A stretch of DNA of 42,675 nt from Reclinomonas americana ATCC 50394. Taxonomy: Eukaryota. Shown here one piece after another: positions 16,723 to 41,724 of this stretch. Numbering within the stretch: the first letter of the stretch is position 1; every line of letters starts with the position of its first letter. Below the pieces are notes generated by a model. It did no database searches, was not told the DNA's origin, and saw only the letters and a list, made by a program, of their open reading frames with translations. The stretch is taken from assembly GCA_048213135.1 (NCBI GenBank), contig PS015077.1:114917-157591 (forward strand), written 5' to 3'. A program made the position numbers and the translations under genes.

Positions 16723-17561
16723 ATGCGTCACGCCTACTTGGTGGCCATCGCAGCGGCGCTGGTGCTTGTCATCGCGCCACTGTGTGTGGCGGTGTTGCCA
16801 CAGCATGCTGAAGAGACGACACACATGGTGCAGCGCGGAGGCTGGTCGTATCCCGCGGACACTGACCATGTGGTGGCGGGTCTCCTCTCTCTGCAAACCA
16901 GTGGCCCGCTCGACCGCCCGCCGGAGTTGCACCCGGAGTTGCAGTGGCACTCGACGCGCGTGACGACTGTGCAGGCGGAGGGCGCGCGTGTGCGTGGGGA
17001 GGGCGGAGATGCTGCAGATGGCATGGTGCGCGACTTGCACGTCTCTGCCGCCACTGCGGGCCTCCGTGTGCGCATCATTGCGCTGCGTAATCACGTGCGT
17101 GTGGAGCCGGCCACCACGTTGCGCATGGTTGACATTATCCTGGAAGTTGCGTGAATGCAAGATTCATGTGTGTGTGTGTTTGTTGTCATGACGCAGTGCG
17201 TGAGAGAGTGTGCTTTTTCACGTGCTTGTTTGTGGTATTATCTGTGTGGTTATTCTCTCGCACTCGTGCTGTCTTTTCCTCCCTTTACCACTCGGCATGC
17301 GCATGCTGCGCCACATGCTTCGTGCCGGAAAAATGGCGCAAACACGTGCGGATGGACGCCTCTCTCACACCCTCTCTCCCACTCACACATACTCTCTCTC
17401 ACTCTCCCTCTCTCTCCCAATCACTCACGCTCACTTTGCGCTCCGTGCAGTCGGCGCCCAAGGGGAGCACGATTCATGACATCTCCATCGACTATCTTCA
17501 TGAGGTGAGTGAGTGAATGCAATGTGCACCCGTGCGGAGCGCATGTGGTTTGACTCGACTA

Positions 17562-17592
<31 letters not shown>

Positions 17593-20500
17593 GTGCAGCG
17601 CGCATTCCGCGTGATTTGTGATGACGCGGCGGTGGAGCGACTGCGTGAGCGCATGGGCAATGACATTGCCTGGGTTGGTGACTGGACTGCTGCGCTAAAA
17701 GTGGACGAGTCGACCAAGGACGTGGAGGCGCATGTGCGTGCCATGCTGCTGCATCGTGGTGAGAAGTGGGATGATGCGTGGCACTTGCGATCGCGTGCGT
17801 CGCGCTTCATGAAGGACGACGAGACTCTCGGTGACCGGTGGGCGACTGTGCACATTGAGGTGGCGCGTCACCCGAACGGTATCTCGCCAGAGCAGTTTGC
17901 CGAGCGCCTGATGGTCACCTTTAACGAGCACGGCATTCGGGGTGAGTGTGTGGTATGCATGAAGTTTTTCAGTGCAATGCACTGTGCTGAATCCCATTCC
18001 CACAGCGCGACTGGCCGACGTGACGGCCGGTGCACATGGCGTGCTGGCGCTCAACTTTGGCGACTTTTACGACATGCCGCGCGCCGTGAGCGCAGTATTG
18101 TCGCTGCCGAACGTCATGTTTGCTTATGTTGCGTCTCGGTTACCGCACGCGTTTCTGTTGCGGTCCCGCACCTGTTCTCATTCTTCACTTCCGGCCCCCA
18201 GATCGAGTCGCCGATCGGCGTGCCGGAAGATATTTCTCCAGCCAACTTTATGCCGCAACAGCAGCAGCAGCAGCTTTCGGCTGCGCCAGTTGCCGCCGAT
18301 TCCACCAGTGTGTCGACCACCGTCACCGATTCGCACACACACTCCAACATCTCCACGCGCAACTCGTCGGTCATCGGCATTGTGCAGTCTGGTACTGTGG
18401 GAACGGCACCGTTCGTCGGCGTGTTGTCGGGCAAGAACCAGCGTATCGGTGCGCGTCTGCTGGGCGTGTATCACACGATAACTGTTCTGCTGACTCCGTT
18501 TGCTGCAGGCATGAACGTGTCCGGCGTTGATTACTTCAACTGCTTCTTCCACGATCCGAACAGCGCAGTCACGTTTAATGTGCCCAGTTCCACACTCTCT
18601 GGCTCCAACATTTTCAGCGACACCACTGTCAACACCAATCACCGCAAGGTTTGCCATGCTGTTCTGTCGTGGCGGAGTGACGATGGCTGACTTTTGCTTG
18701 TCTCATGCTTGCCATGACAGATTCTGGTGTACGTCAACTTTGTCGGTGAGTGAGAGAGTTGTGCACAGTGTCTGTGTACTCTGCTTCACTAGCTCACGTG
18801 CCTATTGTGTGTACACAGACAAATACGATGCGCCGTCTCCGTCCAACGGAACCCACATGGTTTGCTTTGCCGCAGCAGGAGGACTTGAACTCGCCTCTGA
18901 GCTGATCTTGTATTTGTGTTGTAGGCTGGTACTATCTCCGGTAATGCCAACCCGAACGACGCTAGCAATTTCATCACGGGATTCAACGGCATCGCCACCG
19001 ACGCCAAGCTGATCATTCATGATACCGGTTGCAACGTCTCTCCCACCAGCGGCTGCACGACGACTTTCTTTTCTGGAACGGCGACTACTCCGCGATATGT
19101 CAGCGGTACACTCAACTATGTGATGGGGCACTTGATGTCGGTTCGTACATCCATGCTTTGTGTGTGCCTTGTCTCGGTTTGCTAACGTGTTCATGTCGTT
19201 CGACGTCGTCCGTTACAGAACCAGTTGCGTTCTTCTGTCTTCTCACTCCCTCGCTGCCGAGAAGTCCTCTGGTTCTGATTCTATGCGTGATTTTGCAGAG
19301 CGTACATCGTGCTGCATGGGTGAGTCCTCATTTCTCTGTCTCATTTGTGTCTCCTACCACCTTTTCATACTCACCGCTAACTTGCTGTTTGTGTGCGTGC
19401 GCAGTGAATCGGCAACATCGAATGCGTACAGTGCCACTGAGCGTGTGTATGATCACTTCTACGCTGGTACGAAGTTGCTTTTTCACGTCGCTTCAATAGT
19501 TGCGTGTGATCTGACCAACAACGCAGGCTGTCTTAGTGGATGCTCGGGTACTACCGCCGCGCAAAACTACCCGGATGCCACGGTGTGACTGTTGGCACTC
19601 TTTGCTCATTCTCGCTTACTTTCGTCGCTCATCCGAAGCTGCACGCTGCTTGTATCAGAACATGCTCGGCATCGTCAATCCGGGAAACATTCCGTGGAAC
19701 GGTGCCAGCTTTGCGACATTTGTCAGCACCGTGCGTGGCATTGGTCTGCTGAAGAACTCGCTTACGGTGGGCGCCAGTCGCTCGGACTACAAGCAAAACT
19801 ACACGACTGGCGTCGTGTGGACACCCGTTGAGTCGATGTGCTCGTGTGCCGGACTACAATTCGTGTTATGCGCCTGACGCAGTTGATGTTTTTTGTACAC
19901 AGGATGACATGGCGTACTATTCCGTGCCAGGTCTGGGGGCATCTGTGCACACAGCATTACTCTGTTCTATTGCCTCTCACATTGTTCCGTCGCACAGGCC
20001 CTGCCGGTGGATATACTTTGGGCGTGCCGATTGACGGACGTTACGGAATCCAAGTGGTGGCTCCGGGACAGGCCGTCCGCTCTGCGTTTGCGTATGACCA
20101 GTCTCTTGCGCCGGACACCAATGTGTGTGGATCTGGAAGTCGTACAGGTTCGTCGCACGTAGTGCACACTTGACCGTTTGTTAGTAGTAGCTCGGTTCTT
20201 ACCGCCAGCGAATGCGCAGTTACCAGCACCAACGTGTGCAAGCATGTCGGTCTGGATAACGACGCTGCATGCAACGTGTCACAGCGCTTCTCTATTGCCT
20301 CGGAATTCCCGCCCACTGCTGCTGTTGCCGGTGTTGCCGGTGCGTTTTACAATGCGAAGCTGACCGAGAACAATGCCTTCTGAATCATGGTCCCATGCGC
20401 AGCTCTTCTCCGCGAGTACCTGACAACGAGCTATCCGATGGCGCCCAACGCCAATGGCACAAACGCGGTGCCATTCACCAAGCCCCCGGCGTCACTGATG

Positions 20501-23500
20501 CGCGCTCTGCTTATCAATTCTGCTGATCGTCTGCCTGACACCGGCTACTATGGAGGCGATGCCAGTAACTCAGCCAACAACCCACCGACATTCTTCCAGT
20601 ACCAGATTTCGACTCTCACCGAGTTGCAAAAGTCGTACTTGTTCGGTAAGTGGTCGTGTCACCTTTCCATTGTACTTTTGTTCCCGTCGCCTAACGCATC
20701 CGCAATCGACGGTGACCGCAGGGTACGGTCTTGTGAAGCTGAACAATATCATGTCCCCGAACTCCGTGTCGCCGCGCTCGTACGCACTTGAAGCTGAGGG
20801 CTCCACGATCACCGCAGTCGACACAGTGCAATGGGCGACTCCGTTCTCATTCACCAACGGCTGCATTTACAATTTCATCCTCACCGGCACTGCGAATGTT
20901 GCGTTTTGCACTGTGATGAAGAAAAANNNNNNNNNNNNNNNNNNNNNNNNNNNNNNNNNNNNNNNNNNNNNNNNNNNNNNNNNNNNNNNNNNNNNNNNNN
21001 NNNNNNNNNNNNNNNNNNNNNNNNNNNNNNNNNNNNNNNNNNNNNNNNNNNNNNNNNNNNNNNNNNNNNNNNNNNNNNNNNNNNNNNNNNNNNNNNNNNN
21101 NNNNNNNNNNNNNNNNNNNNNNNNNNNNNNNNNNNNNNNNNNNNNNNNNNNNNNNNNNNNNNNNNNNNNNNNNNNNNNNNNNNNNNNNNNNNNNNNNNNN
21201 NNNNNNNNNNNNNNNNNNNNNNNNNNNNNNNNNNNNNNNNNNNNNNNNNNNNNNNNNNNNNNNNNNNNNNNNNNNNNNNNNNNNNNNNNNNNNNNNNNNN
21301 NNNNNNNNNNNNNNNNNNNNNNNNNNNNTTGCCACTCACTGCTGACTGTCGTTTCGTGATATGTGAGCAGCTTCGCATGACGCTGGCGTGGACTGAGTTC
21401 GGCAATGTGTCTGGTACAATCGCTATCCTCAAGTTGCGTCATCTGTCTTCTGCACTCCACGCGTTTTTTCGTTCTCCCAGGCAGGCTGATTGATTTCGTT
21501 TGTGTGATGCAGTGATTTGAACTTGGTGCTGGTGCGCGTCGATAATGGCGTCGAGACGCTGGTGCAGATCGGCAACTCACTGACTGGCTTCCCGACGAGC
21601 AATACCGTGAGCGGCTCGGCTGCCATCATGGCCAACACCGACACTCGTAACCTGGAGGAGCGTGTGACAGTTACCAATGCAGCTGCGGGCACTTACCGTG
21701 CATATATCTACGTTGCGTCATCCTCGTCTCTCAAGTGGATCACGTGACTCTATAGGCTCACATGTTGTAATTGTAGGCGCGCATTCTGCCGTCGACTCCC
21801 GGCATCAAGTTCTCACTGGCCATCACGGCGACTGCTAACATTGCTGGTGCGTGTTTGTTCCCACGTACTAGTGGGCTCCTGTGTGGTTCACGCTGATGGC
21901 ATTTTTGGTGCAGTGCCGCCGTTTGGGTTCTCGAACATTGCGAGTGCCGTTGTCGGCAACCAGTGCTCCGACATCTCGGTGGTGCTGAATCATCCGCTTC
22001 ACGACGGCGGCGTGTCTCTCGACGGCAAGAGTGGCATTTCGGCACGCGGGTATGTCATGCTTCTGCACGCACGCGCACGCACAGTATCATGAACTCATGC
22101 AAGTACTGCTGTGCAGCATTCGTATCTACCGGTCAAACGACGAGAGCACCTCGCTTGGCGACAAGACCGACACATCGAATCTGAACTCGAGCCAGTCGAC
22201 GTTTACAGCGTCTGCGGCTGACATTGCGGCAGGAACGTGAGTGCGCTTTTGCCGTGAACTAATCGTTTGAATCGTTGTTTTCGCTGACCTGCTATCGTTA
22301 TGACAACGTATGGACAGAATCTACATCAAGTCGCTGTTCACCAACACACAAGGACTCACCAGTGTGTTTGGCAAGGCTGGCAACATTACGCCAAAGGGCA
22401 CGTTTGCGGCTGTCAACGGACCATATACACTGTATGCCAGTGAGTTGATTCCCTGCTGCCATCCTGAGCCGTGTGCCACCTGCCATCTCATTCGTGCTCG
22501 TACGTACACTGATAGATGAAGCACCGGCTTGGGATGCTGGAATTTCGTCGTCGACGTTCAGTGCGCCATCGACTGCTAACCAGCTCGTTGGCACATTGAC
22601 TGCACCGGCGCAAGCATCAGCGCCTGTCACGTGGAGTGTCGTCGGTGGTGCTGACCAGTCGTCGTTTACTGTCGCCAATACGAATGAGCTGCGCTTGACT
22701 GCTGCCAATTTGGCGGTCGGGACGTACACGGTCATTGTGCGTGGCGTCGACAACAGCAGCAAGTGCTTTACGAAGACGTACACGATTACAGGCTCAGGTG
22801 CAGTCTGCATCTTGTGCACGCACTCGTTTGCTTGCGTGCCACTCACAACTGTACTCTCCGCTGCCACACAGCAACCGTGGCTCTCACCGTCACCAACGTC
22901 ACGCCGACGTCTGTGATTGGCAACAACGCGACCACGCTGAATCTGACAGGCACGACACTCAACCAGCTCACGAGCGCGGTGCTTATTGCCACCAACGGCA
23001 GCTGCACGGCCGGCACGCCCACCAACGATGCGTCGGTGACGGCATTGACAGTAACGGGCACGGCTTCGACCACCGCCACGCTGTCTGCCACGATCTCGCA
23101 GAACATTACGCTGAAGGTTCACTTGCGTTTTACAGCTTGGCGTGTTCATGTGGTTGCTCGAGATGGCTGAGTTTAGAGTTCTTTTTTGTTTTTGCAGTTG
23201 TGTGTTCAGCAGAACAACAGCACGTGGCTGGACTCTGGATTCACCGTCGCGTCCGTCATTAGTTGAGTATCTGCCTGCTGTCAATCGTGTTGTCCGTTGG
23301 GCTTGTCACTCAACGTGTGCACTCACCGTACACAGTGACTGTGACGAATGTGACGCCGACGTCGATCATTGGCAACAATGCGACGGCCGTGAATCTGACC
23401 GGTACAGCGCTGGACCAGCTGACAGCTGTGCGATTGGTGGCGAGCAACGGCACGTGTGCTGGCTCACCGACCAACCACGCTGCTGTGACGAATGCGTCGA

Positions 23501-26500
23501 TCACTGGGACACCGGCATCGACCTCGGCGGCTCTGTCGGTGACGCTGTCACAGAGCATCACGCTGAAGGTGAGTTCTTGAGACACTTGATTGTCCACTTG
23601 CGTTCGCTGACGTGGTGTCACCTCTGTACAGTTGTGCGTGCAACAAGGCAGTGCAGTGTGGATCGACTCGACGTTCTCGATCACATCCACGATTAGTTGC
23701 GTGACTTATCGATTGATGGTGCACAAACGAGTGGTCAGTGTGTGTACTGACAGCCATTGTGCTTTGTGCAACACAGTGACTGTGACGAATGTTACCCCGA
23801 CATCGATCATTGGCAACAATGCGACGGCTGTGAACTTGACTGGCACGACGCTGGACCAGCTGACAGCTGTGCGATTGGTGGCGAGCAACGGCACGTGCGC
23901 CGGCACGCCTACCAACGATGCTGCTGTGGCAAATTTGTCGATCACTGGCACACCGGCGTCGACGTCGGCGGCACTGTCCGTGACGCTGTCACAGAGCATC
24001 ACACTGAAGGTAAGTTTGGAAATGGTACTTTTTTTGTTCATTTGCGTCAATTCTGACGTCGTGTCCCCTATGTGCAGTTGTGCGTGCAACAAGGTAGCGC
24101 AGTGTGGATCGACTCGACGTTCTCGATCACATCCACGATCAGTTGCGTGGTTTATTGTTTGATGGAAGCAAGTGGTCGGTGTACTGACAGCTGCTGTGTG
24201 ACTTGTGCGACACAGTGACTGTGACAAATGTTACCCCGACATCGATTATCGGCAACAATGCGACTGCCGTGAACTTGACTGGCACGACGCTGGATCAGCT
24301 GACAGCTGTGCGATTGGTGGCAAGCAACGGCACATGTGCTGGCTCGCCGACCAACCATGCTGCTGTAGCAAATCTGTCGATCACTGGCACACCGGCGTCG
24401 ACCTCGGCGGCACTGTCGGTGACACTGTCACAAAGTATTACGTTGAAGGTGAGTTCTTGAGGCACTTGCTTGGTCACTTGCATTCATACTGACACCGTGT
24501 CTTCTCTGTGCAGTTGTGCGTGCAACAAGGTAGCGCGGTGTGGATCGACTCGACATTCTCGATTACATCCACAATCAGTTGCGTGGCTGATTGTTTGATG
24601 GTGCAGAAACAATTGGTCAGTGTGTGTACTGACAGCTGCTGTGTGCTTCGTGCAACACAGTGACCGTGACAAATGTTACCCCGACATCGATTATCGGCAA
24701 CAATGCGACTGCCGTGAACTTGACTGGCACGACGCTGGATCAGCTGACGGCTGTGCGATTGGTGGCAAGCAACGGCACGTGTGCTGGCTCGCCGACTAAT
24801 CATGCTGCTGTGACGAATGCGTCGATTACTGGCACGCCGGCATCGACCTCGGCGGCACTGTCGGTGACACTGTCACAGAGCATCACGCTGAAGGTGACTT
24901 GAATGGTACTCGTATTGTTCATTGCGTCAATTCTAACGTGATGTCTCCTCTGTGCAGTTGTGCGTGCAACAAGGTAGCGCGGTGTGGATCGACTCGACGT
25001 TCTCGATCACATCGACGATCAGTTGCGTGGCTGATCGTTTGATGGTGCAGAAGCAAGTGGTCGGTGTACTGACAGCTGCTGTGTGACTTGTGCGACACAG
25101 TGACTGTGACAAATGTTACCCCGACATCGATTATCGGCAACAATGCGACTGCCGTGAACTTGACTGGCACGACGCTGGATCAGCTGACGGCTGTGCGATT
25201 GGTGGCAAGCAACGGCACGTGTGCTGGCTCGCCCACCAACGATGCTGCTGTGACGAATGCGTCGATCACTGGCACACCGGCATCGACCTCGGCGGCACTG
25301 TCGGTAACGCTGTCACAGAGCATCACACTGAAGGTGTGTTCTTGAGATACCTTTGATTCTTATGTGCATGATTGTTGACGTGGTGTCTCCTCTGTGCAGT
25401 TGTGCGTGCAACAAGGCAGTGCAGTGTGGATCGACTCGACATTCTCGATCACATCGACGATCAGTTACGTGACTTATCGATTGATGATGCAGAAACAAGT
25501 GGTCGGTGTGTGTACTGACAGCTGTTGCGTTTTTTGTGCGACACAGTGACTGTGACGAACGTGACTCCCACATCGATTATCGGTAACAACGCGACGGCTG
25601 TGAATCTGACCGGCACGACGCTGGACCAGCTGACAGCTGTGCGATTGGTGGCAAGCAACGGCACATGTGCTGGCTCGCCGACCAACCACGCTGCTGTGAC
25701 GAATGCGTCAATCACTGGCACACCGGCGTCGACGTCGGCGGCACTGTCGGTGACGCTGTCACAGAGCATCACACTGAAGGTGTGTTCTTAAGGCACTTGC
25801 TTGTGCACTTGCGTCAATTCTAACGTGATGTCTCCTCTGTGCAGTTGTGCGTGCAACAAGGTAGCGCGGTGTGGATCGACTCGACGTTCTCGATCACATC
25901 GACAATCAGTTGCGTGGCTGATTGTTTGATGGTGCAGAAGCAAGTGGTCGGTGTACTGACAGCTGCTTTGTGATTTGTGCAACACAGTGACTGTGACGAA
26001 CGTGACTCCCACATCGATCATTGGCAACAATGCAACGGCTGTGAACTTGACTGGCACGACGCTGGACCAGCTGACAGCTGTGCGATTGGTGGCGAGCAAC
26101 GGCACATGCGCTGGCTCGCCGACTAATCATGCTGCTGTGACGAATGCGTCGATTACTGGCACGCCGGCATCGACCTCGGCGGCACTGTCGGTGACACTGT
26201 CACAGAGCATCACGCTGAAGGTGACTTGAGTGGTACTCGTATTGTTCATTTGCGTCAATTCTAACGTGATGTCTTCTGTGCGTAGTTGTGCGTGCAACAA
26301 GGAAGTGCAGTGTGGATCGACTCGACATTTTCGATCACATCCACAATCAGTTGCGTGACTTATCGATTGATGGTGCAGAAACAATTGGTCAGTGTGTGTA
26401 CTGACAGCTGCTTTGTGCTTCGTGCAACACAGTGACCGTGACAAATGTTACCCCGACATCGATTATCGGCAACAATGCAACGGCTGTGAACTTGACCGGC

Positions 26501-29500
26501 ACCACGCTGGACCAGCTGACAGCTGTGCGATTGGTGGCGAGCAACGGCACATGTGCTGGCTCGCCCACCAACCACGCTGCTGTGACGAACGCGTCAATCA
26601 CCGGCACACCGGCATCGACCTCAGCTGCGCTGTCCGTGACTCTGTCACAGAGCATCACACTGAAGGTGAGTTCTTAAGGCACTTTCTTTGTGCACTTACG
26701 TCCATGCTGACGTGATGCCTCCTCTGTGCAGTTGTGCGTGCAACAAGGCAGTGCTGTGTGGATCGACTCGACGTTCTCGATCACGTCCACAATCAGTTAC
26801 GCGGATGGTGCAGAAGCAATTGGCTGTTTGTGTACTGACGGCGGTTTTTTTTTGTATAACACAGTGACTGTGACAAACGTGACCCCGACATCGATCATTG
26901 GCAACAATGCGACTGCCGTGAACTTGACCGGCACGACGCTGGACCAGCTGACGGCTGTGCGATTGGTGGCGAGCAACGGCACATGTGCTGGCTCGCCGAC
27001 CAACCACGCTGCTGTGACGAATGCGTCGATCACTGGCACACCGGCATCGACCTCGGCGGCACTGTCCGTGACTCTGTCACAGAGCATCACACTGAAGGTG
27101 AGTCCAGAGACATATTTGATTGTGCACTTGCGTCAGTTCTGATGTGGTGTCTCCTCTGTGCAGTTGTGCGTGCAACAAGACAGTGCAGTGTGGATCGATT
27201 CTACGTTCTCGATTACCGCAGCAATTCGTGCGTTGCACCTATTGCCTTGCAACAGCGCTGCGCTTGTCACTCATGCCATTGCCTTGCCGCGCAGTGACGG
27301 TGACGAATGTGGCGCCGGCTTCGATTACGGCCAACAGCGCAACGGCTGTGAATCTGACAGGAACGACGCTGGATCAGTTGACGGCTGTGCGATTGGTTGC
27401 CAACAATGGCTCGTGTGCTGGCACGCCGACCAACCACGCTGCTGTGGCAAATCTGTCCATCACTGGCACACCGGCGGCGACCTCGGCTGCGCTGTCCGTG
27501 ACCATCTCACAAAGCATTACGCTAAAGGTGAACTGCGAAGACACAGGTTGATTTTTGTGCCCAATTGCTGATGATGTGTTTCCGCTGTACAGCTGTGTGT
27601 GCAGCAGGCCAGCACTGTGTGGATTGACTCCGGGTCGACTATCAGCGCTGCTGCTCGTTGAGTACTTGGGTATTGTCTGAGCGTGCCATTCCGCGTCTGC
27701 TTTGCGCTCACGAGGTTTTGCTGCACATTGCACAGTCACCGTGACCAATGCGAATCCGTCGGCACTGATCGGCAACAATACCACGACGGTTAATCTGACT
27801 GGCACGTCGCTAGATCAGCTTACTGGTGTCAAACTGGTGGCCACTGGCGGCATGTGTACGGGCTCGCCGACAAATGACGCATCTGTGGCGACACTGACAA
27901 TCGTGGGAACGCCGACGGGAACAATGGCCGCGTTGTCTGTGAAGATAACACAGAGCGTGACGTTGAAGGTACGGAAAGACAAGTCCGACCATCGACAATT
28001 GGTTGCTGACTCTTGTGCGTACGTACAGTTGTGCTTTGAGCAGAGCAGCTCATTGTGGCTTGATTCTGGGCTGACGATTAGCGCTGCCATTTGTTGCGTA
28101 GTCGCCTGTTGTTCTACGGCGCGTAGTGATCGCCATTTCTGACCTGTGTTGTGATCGACAGTGACCGTGACAAATGCGTCTCCGTCGACGGTGGTTCCGG
28201 GCATGGTGATCACGAATACAGTGAATCTGACCGGCACAGTGTTGGATCAGTTGACCGCCGTGAGGCTTGTGGCTTCCAATGGGAGCTGCGCGGCTACACC
28301 GACGAACGATGCTTCTGTGGCCGCCCTTGCAATCAATGGAACACCGACAGCCGGTGCTGCAGTGCTGACAATGTCGATTCTCCAGAACATCACGCTGAAG
28401 GTCCGTAACTTGTCTTCTCTGTCTTCGTAATGCGGTGCATCGTGCTCACTGCGGTGCACTACAATGCAGCTGTGTGTGCAACAAGGAAGTGCGGTGTGGA
28501 TTGACTCCGGTCGCACAATTACCGCGGCTACCAGTTGCGTTCGGGACGGAACGAGAAATATAGCACCAGACGCGAGCGTGTGTTGCTCATGCCGTGTTCT
28601 TTTTTGTTTGCGTAGTGACGGTGACCAACGTGACACCGTCGTCTGTGGTCGGCAACAACACCACGGCCGTCAACCTCACCGGCACGATTCTGGATCAGTT
28701 GACGGCAGTGCGGTTGGTGGCCAACAATGGTAGCTGTGCAGGCACGCCAACCAACCACGCGTCTGTGACGACGGCGACGATCACTGGCACGCCGACAGCC
28801 GGCGCGGCCGCTCTGTCGGTGCTGATTACGCAAACCGTGACGCTCAAGGTACTACACGGCTCTATTGGGGCGTTGCTTAATTGGAGTCGACAGCTCACTC
28901 ACATGTTCTCGCGCATCGTGCAGCTCTGTGTGCAGCAGGCAAGTCTGCTGTGGATTGATTCGGGATCGACGATTGCGTCGCTGATTTGTTGCGTGCGCTT
29001 CATGACGGCCGTGCTATTTTGCGGTGTACCTCACACCGTTGGCACTGTTGCGCGCAGTGACCGTCACCAACGTGGCACCATCGACTGTGGTGACCGGCAT
29101 GACGGTGGCGAATGCCGTCAATCTGACTGGCACTACGCTCGATCAGCTCACTAATGTGCGGCTTGTGGCCAACAATGGCACATGCACTGGATCGCCGACC
29201 AATCACGCGTCGGTGGCGGCGCTGACCATCACTGGCACGCCGGCATCCACTGCAGCTGTGTTGTCTGTGTCCATTTCGCAGGACATCACGCTGAAGGTTT
29301 ATCTGTCGCCCGTATCTCTGTTGGCTCTGTGTACGCCGCTTCATCTTTCTGACCCCATCACAAAATTTTTCGTGCAGTTGTGTGTACAACAAGGCAGTGC
29401 GGTGTGGATCGATTCGACGTTTACGATTACCGCGGCAACCAGTTGCGTGACATTCACCCATATTATGTGTATGTGTGGGTTTCGGAGAAACTCACCCGAT

Positions 29501-31774
29501 CGTTACTGTGCAGTGACCGTGACGAATGTCAATCCGACGGCGGTTGTCGGGAATGTGACGACCACGGTGAACCTTACGGGCACCATTCTGGACCAATTGA
29601 CGGCCGTACGACTGGTGGCGAACAATGGCACCTGTGCAGGCACTCCTACCAACCATGCCGCTGTGGGCACTCTGTCGATCAACGGAGTGCCGACGGCAGC
29701 AGCTGCGGTTCTGTCCGTGTCCATCACGCAGACCGTGACCCTGAAGGTGTGTTTACTAAGCCCCCTCACGCCATCGCGGGTCTCTGTGCTGTTACTGAAG
29801 TTCGCAAATCGCAGTTGTGCGTGCAACAAGCGAGTCTCGTTTGGTACGACTCAGGATTCGCCATTGCATCCACCATCAGTTGAGTTCCTTCAAAATGCGC
29901 TTTCTCCATCTTTTTTGTCAACTCATCGTTCGTTGACCGCGAACAGTGACGGTCACGGCCGTGACGCCAACGTCGCTGGTCGCCAGCATGGCGTTCGCCA
30001 ACACGGTGAATCTGACCGGCACAGCGCTGGATCAGCTCAGCGGAGTGCGGCTGGTTGCCAACAATGGCAGCTGCTCGGGAACACCGACAAACGACGCCTC
30101 CGTCGGAAACGTGACAGTGGCGGCAATGAAGACAGCCACCAGCGCGTCGTTCACTACGATTGTGACGGCGGCCGGTACGCTCAAGGTACACTATCGATCC
30201 TACAGTGCCCGTTTCGCGCTCGCAGTGCTAACTTTTGTGTGCGCGCGCAGGTGTGTGTGCAACAAAATAGCGTCATCTGGCTGGATTCGGGCTTTACTGT
30301 CACTGCGGCGCTGAGTTGCGTTTTTCCGACCGGTCCGCCATGGCTGTTGCATTTGGCACTTATTATTGTCGTTCTCTCCGACTAGTGACGCTGACCACTG
30401 TGGCACCGAACTCGCTGACTGCGGGCTCGACGACTGCCGTCAATCTGACGGGAACTGCACTGGACACGATGAGTGCGGTGAAGCTGGTGGCCAGCAACGG
30501 CGTGTGCGGCACGTCGGCCACTGACGCAGCTGTGACCACACTGACCATCACCTCCAAGGCATCGACAACGGCCGCTCTGTCCGTGTCTGTGTCGCAAGCC
30601 GGCACTTACAAGGTATTGTCGGTGTTAAGCGGCTTTGCGTGTCTCGCTTGATCCTTCATCTCACCCACTGGTGTTGTGCAGTTGTGCTTGGAGCAACTGG
30701 GCGTGCAGTGGTGGGACTTTAGCAAGAACATCACTGTGCAAGCAGGTACCTCGTCAAGCAATGTGCTGTCATTCTCGAGTGCTGTTTCACTGACGCATCG
30801 ATGCGTTCCGCATCGCAGCTACTATCGGTGTGGCCAACGTGACACCGAGCACCATTGTGGCCAGTCCAAGTAACGATTCGGTGCCGACCACCGTCAATCT
30901 CACGGGCGAGAACCTCGATCGCCTGGCTGACATTGCGCTGACCGCGGGTGTGTGCACTGGTACGCCAACCAATGACGCATCGGTGAATTCGGCCACCATC
31001 ACCTCCAACTCGGCAATGGCGGCTGCCTTGTCCGTGTCGATCTCTCAAAGCATCACCTTGAAGGTGGGTCTCCCAACTCGTAGTTTCGACCCTTGTCACT
31101 TTCCACTCATTGTACGTTTTTTTGTTGCAGTTGTGCGTCAAGGCAAACACGAATGTGTGGGCCGACTCTGGGGCCACCATCACTGCCGCCCTTCGTTGCG
31201 TACGACGCATATTGTTGAAAGTAGCAGAGAGTATGCCAGCGAAACTCATGGCTCCATACTCCTTTCTCTCTCTCTCTCCCCACTTGTGTAGCCACTCTGA
31301 CGAGCGTGACACCGAATTCCGTGAATGCGCTGGCGGCTCCTGGAAACACCATGCCCAAGACCACGCTGACGTGGACGGGTACCAATTTGATGGCCGGCAA
31401 CACATTGCGCATTGTGCTGTACTCGTCGGCTTGCACGGGCTCCACCGGTACGGCCACTGGTGTGACGCTGACCAACTATGCCACACCGAATGGCACCACG
31501 CACACTGTGGACATGACATCGTCGGTCAGTGGATCCGTGCACACGCCNNNNNNNNNNNNNNNNNNNNNNNNNNNNNNNNNNNNNNNNNNNNNNNNNNNNN
31601 NNNNNNNNNNNNNNNNNNNNNNNNNNNNNNNNNNNNNNNNNNNNNNNNNNNNNNNNNNNNNNNNNNNNNNNNNNNNNNNNNNNNNNNNNNNNNNNNNNNN
31701 NNNNNNNNNNNACATCGTCGGTCAGTGGAGTCCGTGCACACGCCGCAATGAGCTGAAGCACGTTTGTTTCTACA

Positions 31775-31819
<45 letters not shown>

Positions 31820-34800
31820 CTCGCAGGTTGGTGGCCGGTACCGTGCTTGCATTCTGTTTGCGAATCGCACCAAGTATGTGCAAGCCGGCGCCGACACGCC
31901 CATTTTGGTCATCGGTGTGTTGGTAGCGGCAGTTCTATTCATGTAAAGTGCGCTCTCTTGACGATTGCGTGCTATATTGTGCGACAGGTTCTGTGACTAG
32001 CATCGCGTCGCCGGCCACACCAGTGTACTTTACTGTCGGCACGACAGGATCGCTGGTCCTGGCTGGCTACGCGCTCACATCCGACGATGCGTTTTCGATC
32101 TCGCAGTCGGCTGCCATGTGCGGCGCCAACGCCGCAGCCATCACCATGACTGCACCGTCGGCAGGGCGCACCGCGTCGCAAGTGCCGCTGACACTGAGCT
32201 CCACGGCCAGTGGCTCATTCAAGGTGTGCGTGTCGTACAACGGCACGGTGGCATCGGCACAGGCTGTGAACGATCTCGTTCGCTTCCGCGGTGCGTTGGC
32301 GTCCACTCTGCATGCATGCAGCTGGACGCATCTCTCACTCTCTCCCATATGATATGCTTGCAGGTGCGCTGATTTCGTCGTCGCCCACTGGCATTCAGAC
32401 GAATGTCACGTCCAATGTGAGCATCACCGGCAACGGTCTCAACGCCGGTTCGGTGGTGAAGGCCGTCGGTTCCACCCAAGACTGCTCGGCGAACCAGGCC
32501 GCCACCACCACCATCTCGCCTGTCACGTTGACTGGAACGAGCACGCTCCAGTTCACTGTCCTGTCGACGTTGAGTACGGCATTGTGAATGTGCTATGCCG
32601 TTCTACGCCATTGCTGCGGCTCATTGCTTGTGTACAGGGTCAAGGCGGTGTTGAAACTGTGTGTGCGACAGTTTGCGGATGATGCATATTTGCCGGTGCC
32701 GAATGGCACGCTGGCAATCAACAGTTGCGTGGCGTGGTGTCGGTGAGCATGGTTGCTGGCTCGCAGAGTACTCATGCAGCAGTGCATTGCAGCGTTCGCC
32801 ACGAGCGGCCCGGCCAGCGTGACTGTGCAGAACGCAACACCGTTTGGTTTCGAGGTGGTGTGGCAGCCGTGCCCCGACGACGTCGACAACTTGGTGTCGG
32901 GCTACCAGATCGATATGCGCGGTAACGATGGTCAGACATATTCGTTCCCGCCAACCACAGTGGGAATTCCGTGGCAGGACTTTGACAAGCGTGACAAGCT
33001 TCTGTACAAGTTCTTGACGTTGCCGCCGGACACCACTGTTGCGTGTATGAGGGGAAAATGCGAAAGGACAAGGGTGGCATTGTGCTCAATGATAGTAATA
33101 CATGTATGCAGTACTCGGAGATTCGAGTGACGGCCTACTCGGGCACCGTCAACAGCGGCTCGAGGTTGTCGGACCCCTCTACCATCCGCACACTTGCTGC
33201 TCGTGCGTGGCGTGTGCTTTTTTGTTGCTGTTGAGTGTTGTTGTCGCTGACTCGAAGAATCGTGATCGTTTGCAGCTCCTGGTGAACCGCAGTCGCTGGT
33301 CGGCTCGGGATTTACAGTGGACGATGTTGGCTCGATTCGATGGACGTGGCAGCCGCCGGTGATTCCCGGTTCTCTCCAGCCGTCGTACGCGTACTACCTG
33401 CAGTACCGACTGCAAGGGTCGACCACGTGGTCTCGTCGAGTTCCGGAGACGGGTTCGATCACGGATCTGACGGTGACCACTGGCAGCCTCACGCCAGGTG
33501 CGTAACGCGAGAATTCTCGCCTCCATTATCACCTGTGGTACACACTTACTCACTGCTCCACTCGGGTGCAGGCCTCACGTACGAAGCTCGAGTGTTTGCG
33601 ACCAACAACAGATATGACGGATTCGGTCCGGCATCTGACGTTGCAGCGGCCACACCTCGTTGCGTTCGACAGTTTCCTTGCTTGGCAGTTGTGGTCTGTG
33701 CTCACGGACGACGGTCGCTGTTCGTACCACAGCGCCCGCAACCATCCCTGCGCGCCCTGTTAATTTTGCGGTGCTTGACAATGGCGGCACCATCCAATTC
33801 TTCTGGATTCAGCGCAATAATGGCGTGCCGCTGACCCGCTCCGTGATCACATGCACTGGGTTTGTTGGCGCTGTCTCCTGCTCTGGCTGGTTGTGCTGCT
33901 GCTATTGCCTGTTTCGTTGACTCGTGTGAGTGTCACTACAGCACCCCAAGCACGGAAATGTGGACTGTCGGCGTGCAGGCACCGCTGACGACGTACACCG
34001 TGACGGAGAGCGATGTTCTGAACCAGTTTTCGGACCCAAGTGCGCCGATTTCGTGCACGGTGACCGCTGTTGCCGATGGCAGTGGCTTGACGGCTACGGG
34101 CACGGCTGTGCCGCTCACGCGTTCGCTGCTGGCCGATCATATCGGTGAGCAAACATTGTGTTGCATGACTGTCCATTGGAGGAGGATGTGCACTCACACC
34201 ATGCGCGGGGGCGGTACACGCAGGTGTGATGCGCATGAAGGTGGAGAATCCGTCGGACATCACCGGTGCCGGAGATGCGGACGCACAGACGCCGACACTG
34301 ACGGTCACCACGCGCTCCGGATTCGCGGTGACGTGGAACTTTAGCCCGACCACCTTCTGCATGACGTCGAGTACGGTGGTGACAGTCGACGCCTCCAATC
34401 AGGCGATTCCACTTTCGATCCGCACGGTTACGTCTTGTCAGTGTGCGCACATTGCCGAGAACTTGCTCTTCTCACGTGTCTGCGTGAATATCTGCAGCTG
34501 TCGGCCTTTGTCGATGGTTTCGTGGTCACGACAGACAATGCTTGCACGATGCCACAGCGGGATACGCTGCGAACAGACAACCAGTGGCTGACCTCTGGCG
34601 GCGTAACCATCAACATTCCGTCCACGGTTGCGTGCCTGACCGGTGGTGAAGCCTGACGGACGGCTTCTGCTTTTTCCTCACCTCCTTTGTTGTGTGTCTT
34701 GCAGGTTGGTGACGTCGATCCACATCTCTTTAAGTACGACCCGGTCACTGGACAGCTGTCGGTCTCCGAGACCGCATGCGGCGGACTGCAAACGTACAAT

Positions 34801-35570
34801 CGTGCCAATGGCGATTTGACTGCTGTTGGATGTGCCGATGGCACGTACGCCATTGTCCGCAGCTTTGATCCAGGTGCGTGTGAAGCTGTGCTGGGCGACG
34901 ACGAGCATGTAGGAGAGATGCTCACTGCGTTTCTCGTTCTGTGTGCGTGTGTGTGCGTGCTTGTGCCTGCAGTGGTGGTTGTGAAGCCTGCCGTGTCGGA
35001 CAAGTGCGCTTGCGAGTGGTACTGCATTTTGTTGATTGTTGTGGGATGCGGCGTCGTGGCCTTTGCCTTGTATGCCGGCCTGCGTTGGTTCCTCCTGCAG
35101 CCGTCGGGAGCCAAGGGAGCGCCTCCGGCGCTCTCTGCGTATGGCGCTGGCGCCTTGGTTTGTCGATCGATCGGGGGTGCTCATTTTTGTTGCTGTTCTT
35201 GTGTTCTCACGTTGGTTGTTTTCTTTTCGGCAGACCACGGTCGATGTGCACGACGCTGAGGTTGCGGTGCGTTATCAGTATTGTTGTCGTTGTCGTGCAT
35301 GTTCCTTTGACGACTTACATTTGATGATTGCAGAGCCCTGTTGCTCGACGATCTGGGCTGATCGATTTGAGAACTCTGTCGCCCACCAAGTTGCGTCAGC
35401 CACCACCACTGTCTCCATGTTGGCGACGCAGCTTTCTTACCTGCCTCTTCTCCTCGCAGTCGTGCTTCGTTGCTGGCTGAGGGGTAAGTGATGCAATCAT
35501 TTATTCGAGCTACGTTGAGCCTAACTTACCCTCGTTCCGCAGCTCAACGTCGCCAGTAAACTCGCCGTAA
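16723..35570 (+). CDS. Giant single-pass membrane protein: signal peptide, S8 subtilase-like domain (KP-43/Dictyostelium Tag type, catalytically dead) with C-terminal beta domain, cadherin-like domain, ~19-22 IPT/TIG-like repeats, ~3 FN3 domains, TM helix, short S/P-rich tail
   Basis: Signal MRHAYLVAIAAALVLVIAPLCVA. S8 motifs GKNQRIGMNVSGVDYFNCFFHD, NHRKI, NGTHMAGTISG, KNSLTVGA, VVAPG, AVAGVAALLREY, PASLMRALLINS, FGYGLVKL, LNDLNL, RNLEERV. FN3 motifs VVWQP..GYQI and WTWQPP..YEARVFA. TM WYCILLIVVGCGVVAFALYAGL at ~35017-35085. Stop TAA at 35568-35570. Confidence 0.8.
22872..31194 (+). repeat. Intragenic array of 19 clear ~430-460 bp units (2 exons + 2 introns, ~99 aa each); about 3 more diverged units follow to ~32720
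   Basis: Example: exon 23336-23568 (233 nt) + exon 23632-23695 (64 nt) = 297 nt, encoding TVTNVTPTSIIGNNATAVNLTGT.LDQLTAVRLVASNGTC...SITLK/LCVQQGSAVWIDSTFSITSTI. Confidence 0.95.
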
Positions 35571-35656: not shown

Positions 35657-38600
35657 ATGGGTTGTGCGGCGCCAGTAGCCGCCTCGCGTCCACGCGCTGG
35701 TTTGCACATCTGATAGCACGCTACACTTGTGCTTGGCATACAGTCCTCACTGCGTCGCGCGCAGTGTACGATGATCCACCAACCGTGTACACACCGATTC
35801 CACCGCAGGTGTGCGATCGCATCGCCACGAGTAGTAGCGCTCTCCCCACACTCACACACATGTGCGCACTCTCTCTGCGAGCAGTTTGCGCCGGTGACTT
35901 CTCCGGCGCTGCTGCCACATTCACCGATGGCTTCGCCACCGACGCCATCCTCGTTGGTCGTTGCGGCGCGATCGCCACCGCAGCAATTCACTCCCGTACG
36001 CACGCCCAGCCGCATGATGAACCTCTCACACACAGCGACGCCACCGGTTAGTGCTGTTCACAAGAACGTTCTTATGAGTGCGCGATCTGTTGTGTGATGA
36101 ACAAACGCGGCTGCAGAATGCCACTCCGCTGGCCGTCTTGCGTGACAAGATCGAGCAACTGCGAATGCGCTGTCTCATGCGGTTGCGTGGTGATCGCCTT
36201 CGGCAGTGCTCGTCGCCCTGTGCGTCTCCTCATCTCGTGATCGTTCACCACGCCTCCAGCATCCGCGATGAACTGGAGTTGGCGTATCGCAGCTGCTTGG
36301 CTGTGCCAGTGAGCGCCGAGGTGATGGCGGGTCGGCATCTGCACGACACCACAAACGTGCCAGCGTGGGATCTGCTCGTGGAGTTTGCGAAACAAGACAG
36401 CGATCGCGTACTGCTGGTAGTCGGGCCGAGCGGGAGCGGCAAGACGATGCTGGCTCACAATCTGGAGGCGTTTATGTGGGAGGTTGGATCGCGATGTTGT
36501 GCGTGTGGGCGATGCACGTGTGTGTGGCTCACTCGCTTGTGCTCGCATGCACACTGGCAGAACTGGGAGTGGGGCAACTCGGCGCCCATTCCGGTGCGTG
36601 TGCCTCTGGATCTGTGCCTGCTCGACGATGTCGTCAGTGGCGAGTTCTGGGATCGTCTGCTGGCGCACGAGGGCTTCACGTTTGACGAGGTTTGTGTTGA
36701 TTCTCCACACATACTCTCCTTGCCATTTGCTCATGTGTCGCCGTCGTCGATGATGGCATCTAGCGAGCTGCGCTCAAGGTGCACCACGAAATCGTCTTCT
36801 TGTGTGACGCCTACGAGAGCCTGGCACCGAATCCTCCCAATCTCTACACTCACAACCGCCTGTCGGTTCGATACGCTATCAAGCTCCGCACGTCGCGGTT
36901 GCGACCATTCTCGCTCACACGCTCCCTTCATTCGTGCAGGCGTGGCAGGCAAAGCTCGTTGTGCTGTGCGACAGCGGCTTTATTCGCTCGTTCAAGCACG
37001 GCAACCTCTTCACCACCCTCTTCTCTCCAATATCAGCGTTTCCGACGCTGGGTAGTCCGCTCATACCCGGCCTGTCGCAGTGCTTCCTGAAACCGCTCAA
37101 CGATTCGCAACTGAATGCGTTTCTGCAAGAGTTGCGCTGCACTGTCGATCTCATTGTTGGTGTGTTGTCGTCGTCGTCGTCGTTCACCTCATGACGAATT
37201 CCGGGCCCCCAGGTTCGTCAAGACACCACATACGCAGTCGCGCGACTGGCAAGTGTACAGAAGGCAGCTGGAGGGTGTACCAGGCCTGCTGACCCTGTGT
37301 CGTGAGGTGCTGTCATCAGTCGCCCCTTGTCGCTTGCGTAACCCACGCACACTGAACAAGCTGTTGCGTGTTGCTTGCGCAGCCGTTGTATCTGAACCTT
37401 GCACTGGCCTGTTTGCCGGTTTCGTTCGCGGACGGCGATGTTGACGCAGCGTTTTCAACTGCCACGCATCGTGCACCGCTGAAGTCATACGAGCTGATCG
37501 GCGCGTTTGTTCGATGGTGGTTCACCAATGTCATTCGACAGCCGCCATTTGCGCAGGTGTTGTTGTTGTTGTTGTTGTGACGCCCACTACCAGCTGCTCA
37601 TTGACATCACCTGTGTCTGCAGGCCTTTACTCGAGAGCCGAGTCTCGCGCAGTCACTTCTCCCGTTTGGCAAGACTATTGCCTTTTGGTTGCTTGCCACC
37701 CCCGCTGCGCAAGTGTCGGAGGAGTGCTGCCCTGTCGGGTGGCAGTACATCAACAGTCTGTGCCATCCGACGCAACTGGATCTGCTTGTTCGCGCGGTCA
37801 GTTGTGCGGAGTATTCTCGTTGTTGTTGGTGTGCAGCTAGCTGATGCGCCATAATCAGGGCTGCATGTCGTGGACAGAGCAGGGTGGAATTCAGTTTGCA
37901 CACAGAGCATTGTTTGCGTACTTTGCCGCAGTGGAGACGGTGGAAACATGTGTGGCTGGCGGAGATAGACTCGAAGCGCACGCATTCAATCATCGCATCT
38001 TGACTTCGGAGGTGCGTTGTGTGTCTCTGCTCTGTCCCTGAAAAGCAAAGTTGACCTGGTTGTCGTCGCGCACACGTCAGCGACAATTGGTGTCCTTTAT
38101 CGGCGAGAGTGCCCAACGCAATGCGCAAGTGGCCGCTCGCTTGTTTGAGATTGTACAGAGCTCTGCGACGCGACCGGAGATGGCCATCGCTGCCAGCAAT
38201 GCTGCAACGGGTGCTTATTTTCCCATGGATTCAACGGCATTTCTTTTTTGCCTCTCATTCTCTATCTCTCCGTGCAGTGCTCAACTGGGCCAGTTTTTCG
38301 TTTGCCAACCAGAACATGGCCCATGTGCGACTCCCGTACGTTGACTTTTCGCGAGTGCGTCTATTGTCTCCGTGTGCGTGCGTGATTGCTCTCGTTTTGC
38401 TGACAACAGCACAGGCGTGGCTCGATGGCACGAATTTGGAGGGTGCGCACCTTCAGCACGCTGTGCTGGAGAAAGCGTGGCTGCGGCGAGCCAATCTGCG
38501 GAATGCCGACTTGTCGGACGCTGTGCTTCGAATGCATCCACACATGCACCATCCGGGCTGGGTCATGTGTGTGGCACTCTCTGCCAGTGGTTTGCACCTG

Positions 38601-41139: not shown

Positions 41140-41724
41140 TGCATGTACAAAAGGACCATGGTATTTTTGTTTTACTTTCTCCACCGCCACTNNNNNNNNN
41201 NNNNNNNNNNNNNNNNNNNNNNNNNNNNNNNNNNNNNNNNNNNNNNNNNNNNNNNNNNNNNNNNNNNNNNNNNNNNNNNNNNNNNNNNNNNNNNNNNNNN
41301 NNNNNNNNNNNNNNNNNNNNNNNNNNNNNNNNNNNNNNNNNNNNNNNNNNNNNNNNNNNNNNNNNNNNNNNNNNNNNNNNNNNNNNNNNNNNNNNNNNNN
41401 NNNNNNNNNNNNNNNNNNNNNNNNNNNNNNNNNNNNNNNNNNNNNNNNNNNNNNNNNNNNNNNNNNNNNNNNNNNNNNNNNNNNNNNNNNNNNNNNNNNN
41501 NNNNNNNNNNNNNNNNNNNNNNNNNNNNNNNNNNNNNNNNNNNNNNNNNNNNNNNNNNNNNNNNNNNNNNNNNNNNNNNNNNNNNNNNNNNNNNNNNNNN
41601 NNNNNNNNNNNNNNNNNNNNNNNNNNNNNNNNNNNNNNNNNNNNNNNNNNNNNNNNNNNNNNNNNNNNNNNNNNNNNNNNNNNNNNNNNNNNNNNNNNNN
41701 NNNNNNNNNNNNNNNNNNNNNNNN

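What the first reader, a model, noticed from the sequence alone, without database searches (positions are those of the whole stretch)
16723..35570. Giant surface receptor tipped by a fully inactivated subtilase
Seen, by manual alignment to KP-43/TagC-type S8 motifs: ADTGLD became NVSGVD (Asp to Val, 18517-18519), HGTH became NGTH (His to Asn, 18845-18847), and GTSMATP became SEFPPTA (Ser to Phe, 20306-20308). Flanking fold motifs and the oxyanion-hole GN are intact and the ORF is uninterrupted. The domain sits on a cadherin-like + ~20 Ig-like + FN3 stalk with one TM helix, roughly 3,500-4,000 aa by hand estimate. Inference: a pseudo-protease serving as ligand trap, adhesin or decoy held far from the cell surface. 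I do not recognise this architecture.
Basis: partly seen in the sequence, partly recalled or inferred. Interest (0 to 1): 0.8.

Follow-up and report, generated by a model that had tools for sequence, protein, structure and literature searches.

The report
Dead subtilase on giant membrane stalk
An intron-rich protist gene is predicted to encode a 4,000-residue cell-surface protein whose protease-like tip has lost the residues needed to cut proteins yet is kept intact by selection, so it likely works as a binding head held far from the cell, next to a related short-stalked gene that keeps those residues.

Summary
Largely confirmed. The gene (16723-35570, +) is not an uninterrupted ORF: it models as 83 exons, 4,011 aa, without RNA support. 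The head is a KP-43/TagC-type subtilase (128.8 bits, best shuffle 3.6). Asp to Val and His to Asn are certain. The Ser motif is destroyed: Phe by fixed helix spacing, but the local register is ambiguous. Behind it lie a jelly-roll, one cadherin-fold domain, 22 IPT/TIG-like repeats, about three FN3, one TM helix and a 67-aa tail. An allelic haplotig and a paralog keep V/N/F and every mapped splice site; dN/dS in the S8 domain is 0.06-0.12 per branch, so it is not a decaying pseudogene. The nearest paralog (UFBoot 98; 15 of 19 introns identical, including a 5-nt microexon) keeps D/H/S and has only two repeats. The gene therefore likely arose by duplication, catalytic loss, loop insertions and stalk expansion. 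Best reading: a non-catalytic binding or adhesion head with a retained prodomain; ligand unknown. No ortholog was found elsewhere. Pseudo-subtilases are known (CspC/CspA); this architecture was not found in print. The scan had noted this gene before on other DNA of the same genome (e1-7397777, e1-9516245).

The parts
16723..35570 (+). Whole gene: 83 exons, 82 introns, 4,011 aa (hand model, no RNA)
   Evidence: splice dinucleotides kept 137 of 137 mapped in the allele and 59 of 59 in the paralog
16723..16794 (+). Predicted signal peptide (aa 1-24)
   Evidence: strongest hydrophobic 19-mer, KD 2.99
16795..18354 (+). Prodomain region (aa 25-314) plus Gln/Ser/Thr-rich linker (aa 315-365) that is about 45 aa longer than in the triad-intact paralog
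   Evidence: 31% identity (52 of 166) to the paralog's prodomain; insertions 313-327 and 345-374; no Pfam hit
18355..20747 (+). Degenerate KP-43/TagC-type S8 domain (aa 366-830), exons 5-19
18517..18519 (+). Val400 at the catalytic Asp position
   Evidence: posterior >=0.95; Val in all three copies
18845..18847 (+). Asn461 at the catalytic His position
   Evidence: Asn in all three copies
19219..19223 (+). 5-nt microexon needed for the frame
   Evidence: a 5-nt exon at the same place and phase in paralog G000:C794
19686..19688 (+). Oxyanion-hole Asn595, kept
20306..20308 (+). Phe730 at the nucleophile Ser position by helix spacing (alternative register: Ser725 at 20291-20293)
20748..21846 (+). 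KP-43-type C-terminal jelly-roll domain (aa 831-990); spans the N gap 20928-21328, which the allele bridges
21914..22439 (+). Unassigned domain (aa 991-1116), also present in the triad-intact paralog
22516..22797 (+). Single cadherin-fold domain (aa 1117-1210)
   Evidence: model pLDDT 91.7; all 49 Foldseek rows shown are cadherin-family chains, best E 1.1e-3; profile vs PDB protocadherin-15 E 2.9e-5
22872..32723 (+). 22 tandem IPT/TIG-like Ig repeats of 97-111 aa (aa 1215-3412), two Cys each, 87 N-glycosylation sequons; 19 of them are two-exon modules (about 233+64 nt)
   Evidence: fold and family
32793..34144 (+). About three FN3-like domains (aa 3413-3730)
   Evidence: Pfam fn3 E 0.043 for the first exon only; motifs by inspection
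34224..34873 (+). Unassigned membrane-proximal domain (aa 3737-3903)
   Evidence: no informative Pfam hit
35026..35088 (+). Predicted single transmembrane helix (about aa 3922-3942)
   Evidence: KD 2.59, the only strong segment besides the signal peptide
35089..35570 (+). Ser/Pro/Thr-rich cytoplasmic tail of about 67 aa with four SP motifs and no recognisable domain

Best explanation
The gene is predicted to encode a type I membrane protein whose subtilase head lacks its catalytic Asp and His and its Ser motif, and which likely works as a non-catalytic binding or adhesion head held about 100 nm from the membrane on a predicted glycosylated Ig-like stalk. Shown by sequence: the substitutions, the domain order, purifying selection, and a triad-intact short-stalked paralog as nearest relative. 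Inferred history: duplication of a membrane-anchored KP-43-type protease; loss of the triad; gain of about ten 3-10-residue loop insertions in the S8 domain and a roughly 45-residue pro-linker; tandem expansion of a two-exon IPT/TIG module from 2 to 22 copies, with FN3 domains added. Inferred mechanism: unable to autoprocess, the head keeps its prodomain over the old cleft, as CspC does. It binds a protein or glycan ligand on another cell, prey or surface through the remodelled prodomain-S8-jelly-roll surface. The stalk gives reach beyond the cell coat. The short SP-rich tail anchors it or recruits adaptors rather than signalling catalytically.
For: Triad loss. V/N/F kept in all three copies; no frameshift or stop in the mapped exons. 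S8 dN/dS per branch is 0.07, 0.06 and 0.12, p<1e-7 each. The rest of the gene has dN/dS 0.01-0.17 against the allele. The nearest paralog G000:C794 (allele C581) keeps D/H/N/S, groups with the window at UFBoot 98, shares 15 of the first 19 intron positions exactly, is 44% identical (170 of 390) in S8, and has two repeats and a TM. Insertions run 13 in the dead copy against 2 in the paralog within the aligned span, leaving out one at each end. The head unit was duplicated again at another locus (C2687-C2689), stays under purifying selection there, and lies in phase with an Asp-box propeller exon, as a portable binding module would. Precedent: CspC keeps its prodomain and is the proposed bile-acid germinant receptor (PMC6636752, passages).
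Against: No ligand, localisation or expression data. The gene model is manual and crosses one unbridged gap (31548-31712), where the donor is seen only in the post-gap duplicate of the sequence. The S8 head could not be folded, so prodomain retention and cleft occlusion rest on analogy. There is no sign of diversifying selection in the variable loops (dN/dS <=0.26 in the 25-codon windows with most changes), which one might expect of a recognition receptor under conflict. The Ser register is ambiguous. No ortholog was found, so conservation is shown only over dS of about 0.2. The stalk length of about 100 nm assumes about 4 nm per extended Ig domain (established value, not computed).
Confidence: 0.58

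Rival explanations
1. The dead head regulates active subtilases rather than binding an outside ligand. It dimerises with, chaperones or inhibits the triad-intact paralog, or competes for its substrate as a decoy, in the way Csp pseudoproteases form complexes with related proteins.
For: An active-looking sister with the same head architecture and more than ten other TagC-like loci exist in the assembly. The oxyanion Asn and the fold motifs are kept. CspC forms a stable heterodimer with CspA (PMC12880746, abstract).
Against: The sister's head would sit about 15 nm from the membrane on two repeats, against about 100 nm here, which fits a cis partner poorly. Cleft-lining motifs are strongly changed. 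The genes are on different contigs.
Confidence: 0.18
2. The protein is a structural element of the cell coat (glycocalyx filament or spacer), and the dead S8 plus jelly-roll is a stable cap or oligomerisation knob without a specific ligand.
For: 87 sequons and 30% Ser/Thr in the stalk. Stalk amino acids are almost invariant between alleles (dN/dS 0.009). The genome has many other giant cadherin-like and TIG-like repeat genes.
Against: It does not explain the many specific loop insertions in the head, nor the re-use of the head in a TM-less paralog.
Confidence: 0.14
3. The head keeps or has rebuilt some catalytic activity through a shifted Ser (Ser725 or Ser728) and alternative partners.
For: HMMER aligns Ser725 to the nucleophile at posterior about 0.5, and that register has the least negative motif score (-2.1 against -7.5). 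Asn595 is kept. His464 and Asp404 lie near the old sites.
Against: It needs a 5-residue insertion in a helix whose spacing is fixed in 13 of 13 homologs, and Arg in place of the Gly two before Ser. The general-base His is Asn with posterior >=0.95. His464 and Asp404 are positions conserved in active homologs as non-catalytic residues. There is no sedolisin-type Glu or Asp at the His column or four residues after it.
Confidence: 0.05
4. It is a pseudogene, an assembly chimera, or two adjacent genes read as one.
For: No transcript evidence; two N gaps; nine near-identical central repeats could be mis-assembled (19 repeat motifs against 18 plus a gap in the allele).
Against: An independent haplotig is collinear over more than 37 kb and bridges the first gap. 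All mapped splice sites are kept. dN/dS is far below 1. The same head-cadherin-repeat-TM order is seen in the paralog. No internal start or signal peptide is needed.
Confidence: 0.05

Closest known systems
KP-43 / SubHal oxidatively stable proteases (S8A, PDB 1wmd, 5fax) and Dictyostelium TagA/TagC 'amoebae pyrolysins' (PMC9549277, passages)
   Same: S8 domain type followed directly by a C-terminal beta-barrel. An in-genome active paralog hits 1wmd at E 2.2e-14, and a profile of its public relatives covers the window's S8 and jelly-roll.
   Different: KP-43 is an active secreted protease; TagC is part of an ABC-family transmembrane protein. Here the triad is lost and the head sits on a cadherin, 22 IPT/TIG and FN3 stalk with one TM.
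Clostridioides difficile CspC and CspA pseudoproteases (PMC6636752 passages; PMC12880746 abstract)
   Same: Subtilase-fold pseudoproteases beside an active paralog. CspC does not autoprocess, keeps its prodomain and acts in signal sensing.
   Different: Soluble bacterial spore proteins with two of three triad residues changed, and the jelly roll inserted inside the subtilase domain; no stalk or TM.
Plasmodium PIMMS2 (PMC5520436, passages)
   Same: Protist surface-associated subtilisin-like protein with signal peptide and TM. Motifs around His and Ser are degenerate, several orthologs lack conserved residues, and the triad is not essential.
   Different: 836 aa with no Ig stalk. P. berghei PIMMS2 keeps D/H/S, and its domain appears to face the inner side of the surface.
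PCSK9 (recalled, no call)
   Same: Subtilase that works by binding with its prodomain left on the cleft.
   Different: It keeps the triad and autocleaves once; secreted; no stalk.
IPT/TIG-stalked surface proteins such as plexins and Dictyostelium TgrB1/TgrC1 (plexin hit; Tgr recalled)
   Same: Tandem IPT/TIG-like domains carry a recognition head above one TM helix.
   Different: Different head. Far more repeats here, and no sign of diversifying selection as in allorecognition loci.

Membership tests
Peptidase family S8A, active member | Asp-His-Ser catalytic triad | tested here: not met
   Val400 and Asn461 certain; Phe730 by spacing
Peptidase family S8A, active member | Oxyanion-hole Asn | tested here: met
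   Asn595
Peptidase family S8A, active member | Proteolytic activity and propeptide autoprocessing | not testable with these tools
   needs protein
S8 non-peptidase homologue, KP-43/OSP type | Sequence homology over the whole S8 domain | tested here: met
   128.8 bits against 3.6 for the best of 500 shuffles. PF00082 itself did not list this locus in an exon-by-exon genome search, and single exons had no S8 hit.
S8 non-peptidase homologue, KP-43/OSP type | C-terminal jelly-roll directly after the catalytic domain | tested here: met
   continuous profile match to aa 988
S8 non-peptidase homologue, KP-43/OSP type | Subtilisin fold confirmed by structure | not testable with these tools
   the domain is spread over 15 exons and was not folded
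S8 non-peptidase homologue, KP-43/OSP type | N-terminal inhibitor-type prodomain | tested here: inconclusive
   31% identity to the active paralog's pro-region; no Pfam or Atlas assignment
Dictyostelium TagA/TagC | Fusion to an ABC transporter | tested here: not met
   one TM and a 67-aa tail to the stop
Csp pseudoproteases | Jelly roll inserted within the subtilase domain | tested here: not met
   the jelly roll follows the S8 domain (PMC6636752 passages)
Sedolisins (S53) | Glu-Asp-Ser triad and oxyanion Asp (definition recalled) | tested here: not met
   Asn at the His column, Met four residues later, Asn at the oxyanion site
Cadherin superfamily | Cadherin (EC) fold | tested here: met
   pLDDT 91.7; 49 of 49 Foldseek rows shown are cadherins, none at E<=0.001; profile E 2.9e-5; Pfam Cadherin sub-threshold in 2 of 6 in-genome relatives
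Cadherin superfamily | Tandem EC repeats with calcium-binding linker motifs | tested here: not met
   a single domain, with no DxD or LDRE-type motifs by inspection
IPT/TIG domain (PF01833) | Profile match above the curated cut-off | tested here: inconclusive
   0 of 5 window repeat exons hit; 7 of 10 in-genome relatives have TIG as their only hit, E 4.5e-4 to 0.021, all under the cut-off; plexin E 0.084; low-confidence model (pLDDT 55) matches Ig-like sandwiches at Z<=6.4
Fibronectin type III | Profile match | tested here: inconclusive
   fn3 E 0.043 on one of the three FN3-region exons scanned

The most novel reading that the evidence does not exclude
A membrane-anchored subtilase was turned into a recognition receptor. 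After duplication, one copy lost catalysis, rebuilt its cleft loops into a new binding surface and grew a roughly 100-nm stalk. The same dead head was then shuffled onto an Asp-box propeller as a secreted partner. Together with the triad-intact short-stalked sister, this would be a three-part system (long-range sensor, soluble bridge, membrane protease) for prey or cell recognition, and a eukaryotic surface counterpart of the CspC/CspA/CspB logic.
Probability: 0.15. Interest if true: 0.75.

Novelty: new variant of a known kind. Interest (0 to 1): 0.45.

Why it matters
Pseudo-subtilases that sense or bind are known, but the ones found in print here are soluble bacterial proteins or short parasite proteins. 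This locus shows the whole transition in one genome: a triad-intact short-stalked sister, a dead long-stalked copy under purifying selection, and a further dead copy with another C-terminus. That makes it a clean case for asking how an enzyme becomes a receptor and what stalk length is for. The weight is limited by one species, no expression data and no ligand.

Tried and rejected
No RNA holder was listed for 21400-31000; this is no evidence either way.

Ortholog searches found nothing usable. The S8 N-terminal stretch had no hit at E<=0.01 (1,781 candidates, proteins of 262-2,000 aa only). The two-sequence prodomain profile against 1.84 billion representatives gave one weak hit that is a TIR-NTPase-TPR protein and was dropped as chance. 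The repeat alignment had no hit among 7,994 candidates scored. The ESM Atlas gave nothing at 0.9 or above for the prodomain. For a repeat it gave unnamed eukaryotic clusters and one cluster with TIG in 41% of members, at a recognition value under the tool's threshold. One S8 exon alone had no real PDB hit. These blanks are weak, because only single exons or one intron read-through could be searched.

The idea that raised allele divergence in the head reflects diversifying or balancing selection was tested and not supported. Synonymous and non-synonymous changes rise together, and the three copies are mosaic: 280 runs against a shuffle mean of 431, reached by 0 of 2,000 shuffles. This points to gene conversion with the paralog. 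The runs test does not separate conversion from rate clustering.

C2688 was first taken for a third allele and rejected, because its flanks differ. A cut one base later at the GTTGCGT donors was rejected, because homologous introns in the repeats and in the paralog use ordinary donors at the same position and phase.

My model of the sister gene slips frame after about aa 755, so only the first 19 introns were compared. The first profile used only 3 of 12 proteins and was replaced. The tree used HMM-matched fragments for nine in-genome paralogs, two of them under 200 columns; deeper nodes are weak (49-78).

Literature searches for this architecture found no description (listings only; the library lacks most subscription journals, and no supplements were read). 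No complex prediction was run, and the S8 head was not folded.
Full report
Setting. The window is eukaryotic: GC about 57%, short introns, and neighbours that include MEMO1, nucleoplasmin-like, HECT and WD40 genes. It lies at G000:C69. The 108-Mb assembly holds both haplotypes of this region, and some intronless S8 loci look bacterial. The organism was not identified.

Gene model. Reading the sequence gave 83 exons and 82 introns (median 73 nt) from the ATG at 16723 to the stop at 35570: 4,011 aa with no internal stop. All 82 acceptors are CAG or TAG and 81 donors are GT. The other donor lies at the gap 31548-31712, where about 35 bases are duplicated across the gap and only the second copy shows GT. 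No RNA run was listed, so the model rests on comparison. An allelic haplotig (C74) is 91-98% identical and collinear over more than 37 kb including flanks, and it bridges the gap at 20928-21328 as about zero bases. It keeps 137 of 137 mapped splice dinucleotides, and a paralog keeps 59 of 59.

The head. An active in-genome S8 locus hits KP-43 (1wmd, E 2.2e-14) and retrieved 12 public relatives. A profile of those 12, with no window sequence in it, matches aa 364-988 of the model in one piece at 128.8 bits; the best of 500 shuffles gives 3.6. It covers the S8 domain and the KP-43-type C-terminal barrel. The Asp and His columns have posterior >=0.95. The Ser site is less clean. Spacing to the downstream Arg is 14 in 13 of 13 homologs and gives Phe730. 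The motif is so degraded, however, that HMMER prefers Ser725 with a 5-residue insertion at posterior about 0.5. That register needs an insertion in the central helix and Arg for the conserved Gly, and it would still lack the His base. Loss of S8 catalysis is therefore a strong inference; 'all three replaced' is likely but not certain.

The stalk. After an unassigned 126-aa domain comes one cadherin-fold domain. Its model has pLDDT 91.7 and all 49 Foldseek rows shown are cadherins, best E 1.1e-3. A profile of in-genome relatives hits protocadherin-15 at E 2.9e-5. There are 22 repeats of 97-111 aa from aa 1215 to 3412, nine nearly identical, each with two Cys, with 87 sequons in all. They are Ig-like and probably IPT/TIG: 7 of 10 in-genome relatives have TIG as their only, sub-threshold, Pfam hit, plexins are the best weak PDB hits, and a poor model matches Ig sandwiches. 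About three FN3-like domains (weak), an unassigned domain, one TM helix and a 67-aa SP-rich tail follow. The exact repeat count is assembly-dependent: 19 repeat motifs here against 18 plus a gap in the allele.

Selection. Against the allele dN/dS is 0.12 in S8, 0.05 in the jelly-roll-to-cadherin region, 0.009 in the later repeats and 0.036 in the C-terminal part. On each of three branches the S8 domain has 31 synonymous to 7 non-synonymous, 16 to 3, and 27 to 10 single-base changes (dN/dS 0.07, 0.06, 0.12). V/N/F are present in all three copies. The dead head is thus maintained as protein. Allele divergence is higher at 18200-23700 (4-11%) than at most of both ends (1-5%). This lies inside the duplicated segment and the copies are mosaic, so gene conversion explains it better than diversifying selection, for which no signal was found.

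Origin. The nearest paralog, on C794 with allele C581, keeps LADSGLD, HGTH, PTGN and GTSHA. It shares the prodomain, jelly-roll, linker and cadherin domain, then has two repeats, a TM and a longer tail. It groups with the window at UFBoot 98 and shares 15 of the first 19 introns exactly; three more have the same phase a few columns off, and the 5-nt microexon is among those shared. Relative to it the dead copy has a pro-linker about 45 residues longer and about ten insertions of 3-10 residues in the S8 domain, several beside the old catalytic and oxyanion sites. A further copy (C2687, C2688, C2689, taken as one locus from consecutive numbering and abutting matches) has different flanks. It carries the dead head, the cadherin domain and two repeats, and then a phase-compatible exon of Asp-box repeats (Sortilin-Vps10 E 1.5e-13; BNR) ending in a stop with no TM. 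That splice is inferred; the propeller could be a separate gene.

How it likely works. Shown: the dead triad, the domain order, purifying selection and the active-looking sister. Inferred: no autoprocessing, so the prodomain stays on the cleft as in CspC (PMC6636752, passages); binding through the remodelled surface; a stiff glycosylated stalk of roughly 100 nm at about 4 nm per domain; anchoring or adaptor binding by the tail. I give this binding or adhesion reading 0.58, regulation of active paralogs 0.18, a structural coat element 0.14, residual catalysis 0.05 and artefact 0.05.

What is known. S8 pseudoproteases that sense or bind are established: CspC and CspA (PMC6636752 passages; PMC12880746 abstract), PIMMS2 orthologs (PMC5520436 passages) and PCSK9 (recalled). 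KP-43 and TagC define the parent type (PMC9549277, passages). The protein is an S8 non-peptidase homologue; it is not a Csp, a Tag or a true cadherin. Four literature searches did not show a dead subtilase on a cadherin-IPT-FN3 stalk, and three protein searches found no ortholog, though only exon-sized queries were possible. The scan had already noted this gene on other DNA of the same genome (e1-7397777 and e1-9516245; by size and title probably the allele and the paralog). Those notes were seen after my reading was recorded and are not independent support.

Side result that supports the model. Thirty of 82 donors are GTT[GA]NGT, the usual consensus shifted by one base. The class is enriched elsewhere in the genome, and the genome has a second U1 snRNA whose 5' arm is complementary to it. 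The scan had noted this many times.

Verdict. A real gene under purifying selection and a new architectural variant of a known kind, the pseudo-subtilase. Its clear active/dead paralog history is the main added value. Interest 0.45.

Noticed in passing
window 17146-35390 (donors); L093:1501-1654, L094, L095:1501-1673: A second donor class, GTT[GA]NGT, starts 30 of 82 introns (14 of 44 outside the repeats); 12 of those 14 follow a non-G exon end, while 26 of the other 30 follow G. In 173 kb of other contigs GTTGCGT is 2.7-fold over a Markov expectation, and 38 of 110 GTT[GA]CGT sites have a downstream branch point and AG, against about 10% background. The genome has a canonical U1 and a variant U1 whose 5' arm pairs with this class one base out of register; the three U6 copies have the normal ACAGAGA box. 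Already noted many times by the scan. Shifted registers are known as non-canonical cases in human (PMC4856993, passages).
   Followed up: yes
L075:2730-3608 (G000:C2689): A paralog of the dead head appears spliced in phase onto an intronless exon of about seven Asp-box/BNR repeats with no TM: a possible secreted chimera.
   Followed up: partly
L070:5798 to L071:3350 (G000:C794; allele C581): Triad-intact membrane subtilase with an unusual GTSH nucleophile motif, one cadherin-like domain, two TIG-like repeats, a TM and a long Ser/Pro-rich tail.
   Followed up: partly
G000:C75:135865-161137, C444, C5194, C8965, C2098 and others (L088-L092): A very large expansion of a cadherin-fold module: 150 of 150 scored matches from 1,710 candidates, including arrays of dozens of one-exon repeats.
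   Followed up: partly
L084, L085 (G000:C1067, C1139), L086, L087: Other genes carry the same TIG-like repeats followed by FN3-like domains, so the membrane-proximal stalk may have come from another surface-protein family.
   Followed up: partly
window 16096-16459: The 3' end of the upstream gene was duplicated together with the dead head; in C2687 part of it is tandemly repeated and follows a different WD40 gene.
   Followed up: no
window 36078-41136: The downstream gene appears to combine an NTPase (NACHT/STAND-like, weak Pfam hits), pentapeptide-like repeats (by inspection) and WD40 repeats.
   Followed up: no
window 40720-42675 (- strand): Coiled-coil gene that resembles an outer dynein arm docking subunit (recalled resemblance, not tested), which would suggest a flagellate.
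   Followed up: no
L001-L008, L010, L011, L016, L018: Several intronless S8 hits, some on megabase contigs with 47-52% GC, look bacterial, so the assembly probably includes co-cultured bacteria.
   Followed up: no
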